This document shows, in pieces, positions 6,509 to 13,194 of a stretch of DNA of 64,000 nucleotides; position 1 is the first letter of the stretch, and each line of letters begins with the position of its first letter. This stretch comes from Escherichia phage UPEC06: the sequence record MW250786; one strand, given 5' to 3'. The translations under genes were made by a program, and so were the position numbers. The notes under the pieces were generated by a model. The model was not told the DNA's origin. It saw only the letters and a program-made list of their open reading frames with translations, and searched no databases.

Positions 6509-6816
6509 GCTGATTCCCCTTCTTCGGTATTATCAAGATAATGATACTGGTCGATTAAGAACACATAGTTCTTTACTTCTCCGTCCATGTAAACCATAAA
6601 AGTTACATATTTCTCATCATAGAACGGATCACCAACAACATAGATCTGGCAGATAGAATCAACACGTTTGTCAAACCACTGGATTCGCCAAGGCTCCTCA
6701 AGCATAGTCCAAGGTTCTTCAATCTTGTAGACCTGGCGCTTTGCGCCAGGAACTAGTGCTGCACGAATTTCGTCAGCGATCATAACATCATCAAAACTCT
6801 CAGAAAAACCCGACAT
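6505..6816 (-). CDS. hypothetical protein
   Basis: ORF track; translationally coupled to neighbours. Confidence 0.35.
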   Translation of the reverse strand: MSGFSESFDDVMIADEIRAALVPGAKRQVYKIEEPWTMLEEPWRIQWFDKRVDSICQIYVVGDPFYDEKYVTFMVYMDGEVKNYVFLIDQYHYLDNTEEGESA

Positions 6817-7925
6817 TAAATACCTACCCGTTTTAAAGTTGAGGCTAATGTTGTCTTATCATTTTCTGTACGTTTCATATAAACGCATTGGAAAATAACA
6901 GATGCCCATTGACCAGCAGAAAACTTACGAAGATTACCCAAATGATCCGTATATTCAACACCTTCGGGGAACCAACTCTTATATTGTTCAATAATAGCCA
7001 ACCACATACTCTTCTCGTCTGCACAAGGGGAGATGACCTGGAAAGCCGATGTTTCACCAAAGCGAAGACCCTCGAAGGTTTGATATGGTTTAACGTTATC
7101 CGCTGCATCACCGAATAGCATTTGGTAACCGAAGAATTTCTTACCCCAACCTTTTACCTTACCAGACTCCATCCAGATCTCACCCATAGAATCATCGATC
7201 AACCAAAGTTCAGGATGTTTCCATGTACGCTCTGTTGAGTCACGCATTGTGTTAAACAACAAAGAAGGAACCTGAACCTGATCCTTATCGAATGATGCCA
7301 CAATATGACTAAACTTTCCAGTCTTCCGATAATTTAAATATCCTTTATATCCAAGGATCGATAAATAATCATCTGCCTCAATACCATCCACAATGATCGC
7401 ACCATACTTCTGCTGAACATATCGACGAGTCTCCCCAAGCAACAGAGGACGTAAAGTATCTTCACGGTTACCCTTATAGATCTCAGGGGTCGGGAGTGCA
7501 AGACGGAAGTTACCACCCCCACCTAAAACACCAAGCCCGTTTGCTGATCCTACGTGTTCAAGAATAGCATTGATCTTAATCTTCAATAAGTGAAGACAGT
7601 TCTCCACTGGTTCTGGAGTTTGCTTTTCAATGATCTCGAAATCATCACGTGTCCACGGAGTAAATTCTTTTCCGCGAGCAACCGCTTTTGCTTCCATATT
7701 AATGTTTTGGTCTTTTAACCATCCACCAACAACATTCTTTTGGCGACCCCAAAACTCTGTTTTATTCTTAAACTCTTTCTCTCGGCCTGTTTCTTTGTGT
7801 CGAGCGATGATCGTTCGTTTTTCTGCACCAGCCGCAGCAACATAGCAAGTTTGATCGAGATCAAGTGCAACAACCACGTTGTCTTCGACAATACCTGACC
7901 AATCTTCAATTACCGGATAACCCAT
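6816..7925 (-). CDS. putative 5'-3' exonuclease / flap endonuclease (RNase H-like, FEN family)
   Basis: VVALDLDQTCYVAAAG and GAIIVDGIEADDYLSILG resemble FEN/T4 RNase H motifs (IDxS...; ExADD). Confidence 0.45.
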   Translation of the reverse strand: MGYPVIEDWSGIVEDNVVVALDLDQTCYVAAAGAEKRTIIARHKETGREKEFKNKTEFWGRQKNVVGGWLKDQNINMEAKAVARGKEFTPWTRDDFEIIEKQTPEPVENCLHLLKIKINAILEHVGSANGLGVLGGGGNFRLALPTPEIYKGNREDTLRPLLLGETRRYVQQKYGAIIVDGIEADDYLSILGYKGYLNYRKTGKFSHIVASFDKDQVQVPSLLFNTMRDSTERTWKHPELWLIDDSMGEIWMESGKVKGWGKKFFGYQMLFGDAADNVKPYQTFEGLRFGETSAFQVISPCADEKSMWLAIIEQYKSWFPEGVEYTDHLGNLRKFSAGQWASVIFQCVYMKRTENDKTTLASTLKRVGI

Positions 7926-7938
7926 AGACCTCTCCTTA

Positions 7939-8442
7939 TTAAAATGCTTCGCCGTAATCTTCGTCTTCTTTAACTTCTTTTACTGGTCGCTTAAATTTGA
8001 AATCTTTACCCATGTATTCATACAGGTAATCGATATTCAAAGACCATTCTTGCTTACTTCTTTGTCGCCATAATGCCGCAGCTTGCATAATGTATTCTTC
8101 GGCAGCTTTCTTGTCAACACCGTTAACTTTCATAAAGTGTTTAACTGCACGAGTCATGTTACCAGTCGCTTGAGCACGACCGATATGTTTTACTTCGTGG
8201 CAAGGAGGGCATAAAGCAATCACGCCTCGTAACACAACTTCACCATTAACAAAGTCCCAGATTTCGTGAGCTTCTACAGGATGCTTACGCCCATTCCCAC
8301 CTTTGCCCCCACAAACCTCGCAAGTGTAGTTAGCTTCTTGATAGCACTTTCGACGAACTTTGTCCCAACCAGCTTGGGTAAGGTAAGATCGGAGGTTATT
8401 GTCCCAAGCTGTGCTTGGAATTAATTCGATAGTCAATTTCAT
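7939..8442 (-). CDS. HNH-family endonuclease-like protein
   Basis: CEVCGG...HPVEAHEIWDF...CPPCHEVKH: CxxC / H..H / CxxCH arrangement. Confidence 0.4.
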   Translation of the reverse strand: MKLTIELIPSTAWDNNLRSYLTQAGWDKVRRKCYQEANYTCEVCGGKGGNGRKHPVEAHEIWDFVNGEVVLRGVIALCPPCHEVKHIGRAQATGNMTRAVKHFMKVNGVDKKAAEEYIMQAAALWRQRSKQEWSLNIDYLYEYMGKDFKFKRPVKEVKEDEDYGEAF

Positions 8443-9087
8443 TTAATATGCCTCACATTTACCAATCATATTCATAGCTTCAGAAACATCGATAATCATA
8501 TCCGTTGCTTCGTCCCAAGCTTTCCCCAAAAGATTCTCTCCATACCAGAAACTTTCATCATCTACCATAGGGTGATTCTCATCCATACCGATCCCCCATA
8601 TACGATCTCTCGGGGAGGCTTCTACAAACTTCAAACCCTTTTTACGGTAACCCACCGCCAGTTCACGAAGATTACCATTGTCGCACATACGACTATACAC
8701 TAAACGAGTGACAATATTAAATTTATTTTCATCCCAAACCGCCTGATCAAAATTCTTTACCTTACGACCTAGCGTTTTAGCACCTTGCGGCGTTACGGCC
8801 TTGATGATCCTTTCCGCTGAATCTTTGTCACCGAAAAGCATAGCCTTTTCATACATCATGTAATGCTCACCAGTGTGGAAATAAATCCCCTTCATCTTCT
8901 GGTCGAAGTTTGAAAACGGAGAGATCTCCTGGTAATGATTACTAAAAACATCACGATAAGAATAAAAGAACACATGTTTATCAGTGACTCGCATAAAAAC
9001 TCCTATAGATCCAATGCAGATATTGAAATTAAGAATAGCACTACCGAAAGTAATCCATCCGGCGTACTGAAAAATCCAATCCAGCAC
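8443..9087 (-). CDS. NADAR (YbiA-like) domain protein
   Basis: FSNF...GEHYMMYEKAMLF...EASPRDRIWGIG aligns by eye with E. coli YbiA/NADAR signatures; first ~30 codons hydrophobic, start may be internal. Confidence 0.7.
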   Translation of the reverse strand: MLDWIFQYAGWITFGSAILNFNICIGSIGVFMRVTDKHVFFYSYRDVFSNHYQEISPFSNFDQKMKGIYFHTGEHYMMYEKAMLFGDKDSAERIIKAVTPQGAKTLGRKVKNFDQAVWDENKFNIVTRLVYSRMCDNGNLRELAVGYRKKGLKFVEASPRDRIWGIGMDENHPMVDDESFWYGENLLGKAWDEATDMIIDVSEAMNMIGKCEAY

Positions 9088-9130
9088 GCTCTTGTGAACA
9101 GGTAGAATGCCAGTATTAAAACGATAACCC

Positions 9131-9692: not shown

Positions 9693-9941
9693 TTAATTTC
9701 CTCCTCGATCTGTGTAGTGCTGTATAATCTCATTTAAACATTTGCCTGTCAACGAAAATTTCTTAGCTACATAGCACTCAGCAATGTGTTCTTTCAAATC
9801 TTTAGAGTCTGTGTAGCCCATTTCAACAATGAAGTGACGGATCTTCGTCTTGTCCTTATCATTTAAAGAATTGAAATAATCACTTTTAGAATCAATTATT
9901 CTCATTTTCAAGTTTCCTGATCTGATAGTAAAGAGAGTCAA
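9693..9941 (-). CDS. hypothetical protein
   Basis: ORF track. Confidence 0.35.
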   Translation of the reverse strand: MTLFTIRSGNLKMRIIDSKSDYFNSLNDKDKTKIRHFIVEMGYTDSKDLKEHIAECYVAKKFSLTGKCLNEIIQHYTDRGGN

Positions 9942-10164
9942 TGATCTCTTCGTTGGCCTTAATGTACATATCCCGTAAGAAAGGTTTCAACCCATCACGC
10001 AAAATATTTCCATCACAAGCATCGTTCAGGTATGGATGGCCTAGAGCCTCCCAGGCAGGTTGATTGGTATAAGTGCCCCAGCCTTGATTCATCATCTGGT
10101 TAAGGTGCTCGATTTGTTTTATCTTAAGCTGCAAAGCTTCAATAGTAATCTGTTTAATATCCAT
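9892..10164 (-). CDS. hypothetical protein
   Basis: ORF track; overlaps neighbour, start uncertain. Confidence 0.3.
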   Translation of the reverse strand: MDIKQITIEALQLKIKQIEHLNQMMNQGWGTYTNQPAWEALGHPYLNDACDGNILRDGLKPFLRDMYIKANEEIIDSLYYQIRKLENENN

Positions 10165-10625
10165 CAGTAAAGGTCCTCAGAGTAAAGTTCTTTTTCATTA
10201 CCACCACGTTCAATACGTACTTGTCCAGCGTAAGTTGCAATAATCATTGCTTCTTCACGTGTCCAATAATTGCTATATTGGTCAATAAACCCTTGGTCAT
10301 CATCACAAACTTGTTGAGTAACTAATTGAGGTTTAACTACATCTAAAACTTCTGCCATATCTTTAGAATAATGACGAGCACCTGGAATAATAAGAGTTCG
10401 TCCATCTTTTAATTTAAAACGGTTGGCTGCGCAGACAATTCGTCGTTGATACTTTTGGTTTTCATCCCAATACAGAGTCTGCCAACAGATTTCAGGAACT
10501 TCATCTAAAACATTTTGTTCTGTATATTCACCACCGTAAGAAGCTAATTTAGCAGCCAGACTTTCCGGAGTCTCACGCGACAAAGCTTTATCTAACAGAG
10601 CTAAACGTTCTTTAAAAGTTTTCAA
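10164..10625 (-). CDS. hypothetical protein
   Basis: ORF track. Confidence 0.35.
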
Positions 10626-12417: not shown

Positions 12418-13194
12418 TTACATACCCTCCAGGTTTGCTTCAAAATAAGTGATTGGCTTCATGATCTTGCCATTCTTATCTTTAAATACTACACGATCCA
12501 TACCATCACCACCTTTTACGATGCTTCCCTTTACACCTTGATAACGGTTACGGTTACGCAGTTCAATCTGTTCAGCTTCCAAACGCAACATGGCATCAAG
12601 ATCAAAATCAGCTTCTGCAAAAAAGTAATACGTCTTGTAGAAACATTCCGTAAATTCTTTCACGGTTGGGATCTTGGAATCATTTGAATCCAAAACCTCA
12701 TTTAAAGCACGACGAGCATTAAAGTTGGAGTTCTGCATGATTGCAACAACCGCCATAACGATCCCGTTTGTATTGTCACTCTCGATAAATTGATCAAGAG
12801 TTCGATAAAGCGAAGTCAGATTATACGTACCCATATTGTCAGCAGGACAGATGTTTTCAGAACCACCTTTTAGGAAGTTGTAATATGATCCAACTACAAA
12901 CAAGTCGCAAAGTGCATCTATGATTTCCTTACGATTCTTTTTAGTTAAACCAAGATCATAAAGTTCATTGTACTCTTCCATAACAAGAGTTTTTTGGAAT
13001 TTTGAAATATCTTCAGAGAAGTCATGAAAACCACGAGCAACAAAATTCCAATTTTTTACTCGCTCTGCTGCTTCCCGAAAGAAGCTATTGCCCTTAACAT
13101 CAATCATCTCGGAAATAAAGGTTTTCTGATCAGCACTCAATTCATTGTATTTCAATTTAATCTCCTTTCGTTTAACTTGGGGGCCATTATACAT
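12418..13194 (-). CDS. hypothetical protein (weak MazG-like NTP pyrophosphatase resemblance)
   Basis: EEYNELYD...CDLFVVG loosely resembles MazG EExxEL / GDxLF motifs; speculative. Confidence 0.25.
   Translation of the reverse strand: MYNGPQVKRKEIKLKYNELSADQKTFISEMIDVKGNSFFREAAERVKNWNFVARGFHDFSEDISKFQKTLVMEEYNELYDLGLTKKNRKEIIDALCDLFVVGSYYNFLKGGSENICPADNMGTYNLTSLYRTLDQFIESDNTNGIVMAVVAIMQNSNFNARRALNEVLDSNDSKIPTVKEFTECFYKTYYFFAEADFDLDAMLRLEAEQIELRNRNRYQGVKGSIVKGGDGMDRVVFKDKNGKIMKPITYFEANLEGM

What the first reader, a model, noticed from the sequence alone, without database searches (positions are those of the whole stretch)
8443..9087. NADAR domain protein in the early region: candidate reversal of nucleotide/DNA ADP-ribosylation
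Motifs FSNF, EHY, and E-SPRD-WGIG match the NADAR/YbiA family. NADAR enzymes have been reported to hydrolyse ADP-ribose from guanine modified by DarT-type toxins, so a phage copy could counter a DarTG-like host defence. The N-terminal ~30 residues are hydrophobic and may not be part of the protein.
Basis: partly seen in the sequence, partly recalled or inferred. Interest (0 to 1): 0.6.

Follow-up and report, generated by a model that had tools for sequence, protein, structure and literature searches.

The report
Phage NADAR enzyme, likely anti-DarTG1
This is an intact phage gene for a NADAR-family enzyme, a type already shown in other E. coli phages to strip ADP-ribose off guanine in DNA and so defeat the DarTG1 defence, which makes it a credible but unsurprising new member of a known counter-defence family.

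Summary

Translation starts at the ATG at 8994, giving 183 aa, 5 nt downstream of an AGGAG. A sibling phage carries a stop codon inside the supposed extension.

The window comes from an unclassified Vequintavirinae coliphage, about 95% identical to vB_EcoM-LTH01 and A5-4. The gene is under strong purifying selection (dN/dS 0.02-0.05). It keeps a conserved position (ligase ... NADAR, HNH, exonuclease) across Vequintavirinae genera.

The proposed function has already been shown for phage NADARs (AdfN; Johannesman et al., Nat Commun 2025). T4 gp30.3, AdfN-Bas32 and AdfN-Bas60 all reverse DarT1 guanine ADP-ribosylation. The window protein is 37% identical to AdfN-Bas60 and falls in the same broad stand-alone NADAR radiation.

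Activity and target in this phage are inferred, not tested. Verdict: a new member of a known kind, of low to moderate interest.

The parts
8443..8994 (-). NADAR coding sequence, 183 aa, ATG start at 8994 and TAA stop at 8445-8443
9000..9004 (-). Shine-Dalgarno AGGAG, 5 nt upstream of the ATG at 8994
   Evidence: Read directly from the sequence. Invariant in all six related phages.
8995..9087 (-). In-frame upstream stretch (GTG at 9087, 31 hydrophobic codons) that is NOT part of the protein; it is 5' untranslated or intergenic sequence
   Evidence: LTH01 has TGA at codon 10. The other variable sites give W->R, N->D and G->R. There is no Shine-Dalgarno before the GTG. LTH01 annotates the 183-aa form.
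8866..8868 (-). Codon for Glu43, the catalytic glutamate (PnNADAR E43, E. coli C7 NADAR E88, T4 AdfN E36)
   Evidence: Invariant column in alignments A2 and A3. Residue roles from PMC11543638 and PMC11257639.
8845..8847 (-). Codon for Lys50, the phosphate- and adenine-binding lysine (PnNADAR K50, C7 K95, T4 AdfN K43)
   Evidence: Invariant in A2 and >=90% conserved in A3. Essential in C7 NADAR and in AdfN.
8596..8622 (-). Codons for Glu125 to Trp133 (E-A-S-P-R-D-R-I-W): the distal-ribose glutamate, Asp130 and Trp133 of the ADP-ribose pocket
   Evidence: Aligns residue for residue with PnNADAR E125, D130 and W133. Nearly invariant in A3.
7939..8442 (-). Context only: a conserved HNH endonuclease gene whose ATG directly abuts the NADAR stop codon
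   Evidence: phrog_5200 E=4e-71. Orthologues follow NADAR in PVP-SE1 (59% identity) and phiTE (62%).
6816..7925 (-). Context only: a 5'-3' exonuclease gene that closes the conserved NADAR-HNH-exonuclease block
   Evidence: phrog_107 E=6e-65. 66-74% identical to the PVP-SE1 and phiTE exonucleases.

Best explanation
The gene encodes a stand-alone, catalytically competent NADAR ADP-ribosylglycohydrolase of a Vequintavirinae coliphage. During infection it most likely cleaves the N-glycosidic bond between ADP-ribose and guanine (N2) in phage DNA that a host DarT1-type ADP-ribosyltransferase has modified. That would restore a replicable template and act as an 'orphan antitoxin' against DarTG1, an AdfN-type counter-defence.

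Shown here: family membership, fold, an intact ADP-ribose pocket, purifying selection, the correct gene boundaries, and conserved synteny in the replication/repair gene block.

Inferred: hydrolase activity, guanine specificity, and DarTG1 as the natural target.
For: - Profile matches: Pfam NADAR E=5.9e-37; a profile of the clade hits 8BAU at E=1.5e-38 and YbiA at E=6.6e-34.
- Active site: of the 13 PnNADAR residues that contact ADP-ribose (PMC11543638), 10 are identical (E43, K50, K73, G76, R77, V79, W87, E125, D130, W133). Two are conservative changes (Y84->F82, R93->K91) and one differs (D86->Q84).
- Selection: dN/dS 0.02-0.05 at dS 0.22-0.31.
- Experiments on relatives: all four E. coli-associated NADAR subtypes hydrolyse guanosine-ADPr in vitro (PMC11125620). 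AdfN-T4, AdfN-Bas32 and AdfN-Bas60 rescue phages from DarTG1 but not from DarTG2 (PMC11825919).
- Relatedness: the window protein is 37% identical to AdfN-Bas60 at E=2e-29, and both are 183 aa. It sits with AdfN-Bas60 in the stand-alone bacterial/phage NADAR radiation, with YbiA and PnNADAR outside.
- Dispensability: the copy in phage A7_1, isolated on DarTG-free K-12, carries a frameshift. This fits a conditionally needed anti-defence gene.
Against: - No experiment exists on this protein or on any close relative (>60% identity).
- In vitro activity does not guarantee protection in vivo. YbiA and T4 gp30.3 failed to neutralise DarT1 in uninfected cells.
- The protein is far from DarT1-linked NADARs. 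The clade profile does not hit the Geobacter NADAR at E<=0.01, and the third catalytic residue is the YbiA-type Glu rather than the DarG1-type Asp.
- The gene is a conserved syntenic resident of the replication/repair block across genera with different hosts. It is not in a variable anti-defence islet, so a broader or different substrate is possible.
Confidence: 0.65

Rival explanations
1. It is a nucleic-acid de-ADP-ribosylase whose main natural target is not DarTG1. The target could be another ADP-ribosylating or related defence or toxin: cytidine- or RNA-linked ADP-ribose, pierisin/ScARP/YarT-like toxins, or NADAR-containing systems such as DS-32 (NADAR+PRTase) or PADLOC candidate PDC-M42.
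For: - Some NADARs, including YbiA-type enzymes, also reverse cytidine ADP-ribosylation (PMC12945103).
- A myxobacterial ART-YbiA toxin-antitoxin pair exists.
- DS-32 pairs a NADAR with a PRTase.
- The window protein and AdfN-Bas60 both hit PADLOC PDC-M42C, at E=4.8e-25 and 1.7e-34.
- The third catalytic residue is the YbiA-type Glu.
- Homologues occur in phages of hosts as distant as Staphylococcus, Listeria and Bacillus.
Against: - The match to the DS-32 model is only 29.8 bits against a cut-off of 240.
- Every phage NADAR tested so far acted on guanine-ADPr and countered DarTG1.
- No specific alternative toxin is known for E. coli Vequintavirinae.
Confidence: 0.17
2. It degrades low-molecular-weight ADP-ribose-derived immune signals or toxins (cyclic ADPR variants, ADPr-1''P and the like) rather than deconjugating DNA.
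For: Iyer, Burroughs, Anantharaman and Aravind proposed this as the predominant role of phage Macro, NADAR, SLOG and Nudix proteins, and noted that NADAR is enriched in large myoviruses (PMC9503650).
Against: That proposal predates the biochemical work. No NADAR has been shown to cleave such signals. The pocket residues match those that bind ADP-ribose after guanine release. Homologues of Bas60's macrodomain, NAMPT, sirtuin, PRTase and PRPP synthetase genes are not found in this window.
Confidence: 0.07
3. It is a YbiA-like housekeeping N-glycosidase that disposes of riboflavin-pathway intermediates. Relatives are annotated as 'GTP cyclohydrolase II' or 'N-glycosidase YbiA'.
For: TIGR02464 'riboflavin biosynthesis intermediates N-glycosidase' scores 128 bits against a cut-off of 73.7. 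Several phage homologues carry such labels.
Against: TIGR02464 is a domain-level model of the NADAR fold. In the tree YbiA is an outgroup to this clade. The gene has no rib neighbours and is not fused to RibA or RibD. YbiA itself has guanosine de-ADP-ribosylase activity. A lytic phage has no evident need for riboflavin damage control.
Confidence: 0.04
4. It reverses or tunes ADP-ribosylation carried out by the phage's own ADP-ribosyltransferase.
For: T4 adfN lies near alt and the ligase gene. Phages often pair ADP-ribosyltransferases ('writers') with enzymes that remove the mark ('erasers').
Against: No homologue of T4 Alt is detectable in the 64-kb window. No ADP-ribosyltransferase is annotated nearby in relatives.
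Confidence: 0.03

Closest known systems
AdfN-Bas60 (bas60_0111, QXV83846, Escherichia phage PaulScherrer/Bas60), an experimentally validated anti-DarTG1 NADAR (Johannesman, Carlson and LeRoux, Nat Commun 2025, PMC11825919)
   Same: Both are stand-alone phage NADARs of exactly 183 aa that begin MR(V/I)TDK. Both have the E43/K50/E125 catalytic set. They share 37% identity at E=2e-29. Both hit PADLOC PDC-M42C and fall in the same broad stand-alone NADAR radiation.
   Different: Identity is only 37%. Bas60 is now classified in Stephanstirmvirinae/Justusliebigvirus, not Vequintavirinae proper. Its NADAR sits in a different genomic context, after an FtsH-like protease on the rightward strand. Bacterial homologues (Flavobacteria, 44-47% identity) are closer to the window protein than Bas60's is.
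Vequintavirinae NADAR orthologues (Certrevirus phiTE_175, CR3, CR8, PBES02; Seunavirus PVP-SE1 gp120, SSE121; Klebsiella phage KB57 'NADAR family protein')
   Same: 49-57% identity, same length, same synteny: ligase ... MazG ... NADAR, HNH, exonuclease.
   Different: None of them has been characterised. Most are annotated as hypothetical protein.
Phytophthora nicotianae NADAR (PDB 8BAU) and E. coli YbiA (PDB 2B3W)
   Different: These are cellular proteins and lie outside the clade in the tree. YbiA does not protect against DarT1 in vivo.
T4 gp30.3 (AdfN-T4)
   Same: A phage NADAR that counters DarTG1. It shares the E and K catalytic pair, and it also lies downstream of the DNA ligase gene.
   Different: About 20% identity. 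It belongs to the His-type 'phage NADAR' subfamily, is related to DarG1, and works only in the T-even context.
DarG1 (DarT1-associated NADAR antitoxin; E. coli C7, Geobacter lovleyi 8BAT)
   Same: Same superfamily and the same predicted reaction.

Membership tests
NADAR superfamily (Pfam PF08719) | Profile match above the curated threshold | tested here: met
   127.9 bits against a gathering score of 35.1, E=5.9e-37, covering profile positions 10-158 of 163.
NADAR superfamily (Pfam PF08719) | NADAR alpha+beta fold | tested here: met
NADAR superfamily (Pfam PF08719) | Conserved catalytic Glu and Lys (PnNADAR E43 and K50) plus an acidic residue at the E125 position | tested here: met
   E43, K50 and E125 are present, along with R77, W87, D130 and W133. 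Residue roles from PMC11543638.
NADAR superfamily (Pfam PF08719) | ADP-ribosyl N-glycohydrolase activity | not testable with these tools
   Requires an enzyme assay.
AdfN (phage anti-DarT factor NADAR) | Phage-encoded orphan NADAR with no cognate DarT toxin | tested here: met
   The window is a Vequintavirinae phage. The neighbours are an HNH endonuclease, an exonuclease and small hypothetical genes, with no ADP-ribosyltransferase.
AdfN (phage anti-DarT factor NADAR) | Close relationship to an experimentally validated AdfN | tested here: inconclusive
   37% identity to AdfN-Bas60 and the same broad clade in a neighbour-joining tree without bootstrap support. About 20% identity to AdfN-T4. AdfN-Bas32 was not compared.
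AdfN (phage anti-DarT factor NADAR) | Restores phage replication on DarTG1 hosts, or neutralises DarT1; specific for guanine-ADPr | not testable with these tools
   Requires plaque and toxicity assays like those in PMC11825919.
YbiA-type riboflavin-intermediate N-glycosidase (TIGR02464) | HMM score above the cut-off | tested here: met
   128.1 bits against 73.7. The model is an 'equivalog_domain' that captures the NADAR domain in general.
YbiA-type riboflavin-intermediate N-glycosidase (TIGR02464) | Placement in the YbiA clade, or linkage or fusion to riboflavin genes | tested here: not met
   YbiA is an outgroup in the tree and 26-27% identical. No rib genes or fusions are present.
DarG1 (DarT1-linked NADAR antitoxin) | Operon with DarT1, Asp at the C7 D171 position, and close sequence or structure similarity | tested here: not met
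DS-32B NADAR anti-phage protein (NF053876) | HMM score above the cut-off | tested here: not met
   29.8 bits against a cut-off of 240.

The most novel reading that the evidence does not exclude
The conserved Vequintavirinae NADAR may not be primarily an anti-DarTG1 factor. It could be the 'eraser' arm of a phage DNA-repair block (NADAR, conserved HNH, 5'-3' exonuclease) that handles base-linked ADP-ribose of several kinds: guanine, cytidine, or products of PRTase/NADAR systems such as DS-32 or PDC-M42. That would give broad protection against a class of nucleic-acid-modifying defences across many hosts.
Probability: 0.12. Interest if true: 0.55.

Novelty: new member of a known kind. Interest (0 to 1): 0.25.

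Why it matters
The finding adds a well-supported, correctly delimited AdfN-type candidate from a little-studied Vequintavirinae lineage. It shows that this NADAR is a conserved, syntenic and strongly constrained gene across Vequintavirinae genera, which suggests that base ADP-ribosylation is a common hazard for these phages. For phage therapy or host-range prediction, it predicts resistance to DarTG1. It opens no new question: the mechanism and the phage counter-defence role were published between 2023 and 2025.

Tried and rejected
- **214-aa GTG-start protein with a hydrophobic N-terminal segment (possible membrane anchor): rejected.** LTH01 has an in-frame stop in the extension, every variable site there is non-synonymous or nonsense, there is no Shine-Dalgarno before the GTG, and homologues are 174-185 aa.
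- **Structured RNA or regulatory element in the 136-nt gap upstream (8995-9130): not supported.** The fold z-score is -1.18, there is no Rfam hit, and no sigma-70-like promoter or terminator. Its 96-97% identity to siblings is not exceptional against the mosaic background of 66-100%.
- **Functional coupling of NADAR to NAD-salvage, macrodomain or sirtuin genes as in Bas60: no homologues in the window**.
- **Supplementary tables of PMC11825919**, to see whether this clade was in their tree: not held.
- **Membership of DarG1, DS-32B or the YbiA clade: each failed at least one defining test**.

Full report
**What is there.** The finding's coordinates, 8443..9087, are the maximal ORF on the minus strand: 214 aa with a GTG start. 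The translated product matches Pfam NADAR (PF08719) at E=5.9e-37, 127.9 bits against a gathering score of 35.1. It also matches TIGR02464 at E=3.3e-37 and PHROG 1017 at E=4e-47.

**Gene boundaries.** That is correct, on four lines of evidence.
- The internal ATG at 8994 is preceded by AGGAG (9004-9000) with a 5-nt spacer. The GTG at 9087 has no such site.
- In an alignment of the window with its five closest relatives, LTH01 carries an in-frame TGA at codon 10 of the extension. The three other variable sites give W->R, N->D and G->R, so no variable site is synonymous.
- The body of the gene, by contrast, has dN/dS of 0.02-0.05 at dS of 0.22-0.31.
- Homologues in databases and in other Vequintavirinae are 174-185 aa and start MRVTDK. 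AdfN-Bas60 is also exactly 183 aa.

The protein is therefore 183 aa, encoded at 8994..8443. Its TAA stop directly abuts the ATG of the next gene.

**Where the window comes from.** The window is about 95% identical over 25 kb to Escherichia phages vB_EcoM-LTH01, A5-4, A7_1, A73 and W70. These are unclassified members of Vequintavirinae, and the next relatives are Certrevirus phages. The gene lies in the long leftward block that also holds DNA ligase, a MazG-like pyrophosphohydrolase, exonucleases, thymidylate synthase and ribonucleotide reductases. The local order NADAR, HNH endonuclease, 5'-3' exonuclease is conserved in PVP-SE1 (Seunavirus) and phiTE (Certrevirus). The HNH and the exonuclease are diverged to a similar or lesser degree than NADAR: 59-62% and 66-74% identity, against 50-57% for NADAR. 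This looks like a vertically inherited resident of the replication/repair module rather than a recent cargo gene.

Schuller et al. list the residues of PnNADAR that hold ADP-ribose (PMC11543638). Aligning through HMMER and MAFFT gives the following.
- 10 of 13 are identical in the window protein: E43, K50, K73 (Pn K75), G76, R77, V79, W87, E125, D130 and W133.
- Two are conservative changes: Y84->F82 and R93->K91.
- One differs: D86->Q84.

E43 and K50 correspond to the residues whose mutation abolishes activity in E. coli C7 NADAR (E88, K95) and in T4 AdfN (E36, K43). The third catalytic position carries Glu (the YbiA/PnNADAR type), not the Asp of DarG1 or the His of T4-type phage NADARs. The invariant Ser is S18, in 'VFSNHY'.

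**What is known about such proteins.**
- NADARs hydrolyse guanine-linked ADP-ribose and serve as the antitoxin of DarTG1 (PMC11543638).
- All four NADAR subtypes associated with E. coli, including YbiA and T4 gp30.3, are active on guanosine-ADPr in vitro, but only some protect cells from DarT1 (PMC11125620).
- The same paper showed that two unrelated phage NADARs, AdfN-Bas32 (T5-like) and AdfN-Bas60, neutralise DarT1 and rescue three DarTG1-sensitive phages, but give no rescue from DarTG2.

I located AdfN-Bas60 as bas60_0111 in MZ501100. It is 37% identical to the window protein at E=2e-29. In a neighbour-joining tree of 70 sequences, the window protein groups with the other Vequintavirinae NADARs. 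That group lies inside a radiation of stand-alone bacterial NADARs that also contains AdfN-Bas60. PnNADAR and YbiA fall outside, and AdfN-T4 is very distant. [quoted passage not shown]

**Most likely mechanism.** The protein is made during infection. It removes ADP-ribose that a DarT1-type toxin has attached to guanine in single-stranded phage DNA, so replication can continue. It would be an orphan antitoxin of the AdfN type. I put this at about 0.65. Confidence that it is an active ADP-ribosyl N-glycohydrolase of some nucleic-acid or ADPr substrate is much higher. A small supporting point is that the A7_1 copy, from a phage isolated on K-12, is frameshifted, as expected for a gene needed only on particular hosts.

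**Rival explanations.**
- *A different or broader natural target.* Candidates are cytidine-ADPr, RNA-ADPr, ART-YbiA pairs, and DS-32 or PDC-M42 systems. This cannot be excluded, and the gene's conservation across phages of many hosts fits it. However, the match to the DS-32 model is far below its cut-off.
- *Degradation of small ADPr-derived signals.* This was proposed before the biochemistry was done and has no direct support.
- *A riboflavin-pathway N-glycosidase.* This rests only on a domain-level HMM and on inherited annotation. The tree and the genomic context contradict it.
- *Reversal of a phage-encoded ART.* No ADP-ribosyltransferase is found in the window.

**Novelty and verdict.** The family, the reaction and the phage counter-defence role are all published, and RefSeq already labels some orthologues 'NADAR family protein'. 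This is a new member of a known kind, in a phage lineage where it has not been tested. Interest is low to moderate at 0.25. This analysis adds corrected gene boundaries, residue-level and structural confirmation, evidence of strong constraint and conserved synteny, and the link to the validated AdfN-Bas60.

**Seen in passing.** Just upstream of the NADAR gene lie three ORFs (9693-10625) homologous to T-even arn.1, arn.2 and arn.3. The arn.3-like gene is 99.6% identical in DNA to that of a Mosigvirus but only 76-78% identical to the copy in the sibling phages. This indicates a very recent gene-sized exchange between a T-even phage and this Vequintavirinae lineage.

Noticed in passing
window 10164-10625 (minus strand): The 153-aa arn.3-like ORF (phrog_839, function unknown) is 99.6% identical over 459 nt to arn.3 of a T-even Mosigvirus (LR027391). 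It is only 76-78% identical to the same gene in the sibling Vequintavirinae phages. This points to a very recent gene-sized recombinational replacement between two unrelated phage families.
   Followed up: partly
window 9693-10164 (minus strand): Two small ORFs are homologous to T-even arn.1 and arn.2 (phrog_4452, phrog_1844). Relatives annotate them as 'anti-restriction nuclease', but they correspond to the neighbours of arn, not to Arn itself, so the label is probably annotation spill-over.
   Followed up: partly
L008 (Escherichia phage A7_1) 3001-3644: The NADAR gene of A7_1 has a 1-nt deletion that splits it into two annotated ORFs after about residue 96. This is either a natural pseudogene in a phage propagated on K-12 or a sequencing error.
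   Followed up: partly
window 7939-8442; L007 1976-3000; L002 5503-6500; L014 4536-6056: The slot between NADAR and the exonuclease holds one conserved HNH gene (59-62% identity across genera). It also holds a variable number of extra, unrelated HNH endonuclease genes in A73/W70, A5-4 and phiTE, so it is a hotspot for homing-endonuclease insertion.
   Followed up: partly
window 8995-9130: The 136-nt gap upstream of the NADAR start has no sigma-70-like promoter, no terminator, no Rfam match and no significant fold. It differs at only 3-4 sites from the sibling phages, and its role (for example a phage-specific promoter) is unknown.
   Followed up: partly
window 12430-13074 (minus strand): This stretch is a homologue (31% identity, E=2e-22) of the PVP-SE1 gp112 nucleotide pyrophosphohydrolase (MazG-like). 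It lies between the ligase and the NADAR gene, as it does in PVP-SE1 and phiTE.
   Followed up: no
MZ501100 (Bas60), loci L003-L006: Bas60, described in the AdfN paper as a member of Vequintavirinae, is now classified as Stephanstirmvirinae/Justusliebigvirus. Its genome also encodes a macrodomain protein, a PRTase, a sirtuin, NAMPT and PRPP synthetase, none of which has a homologue in this window.
   Followed up: yes
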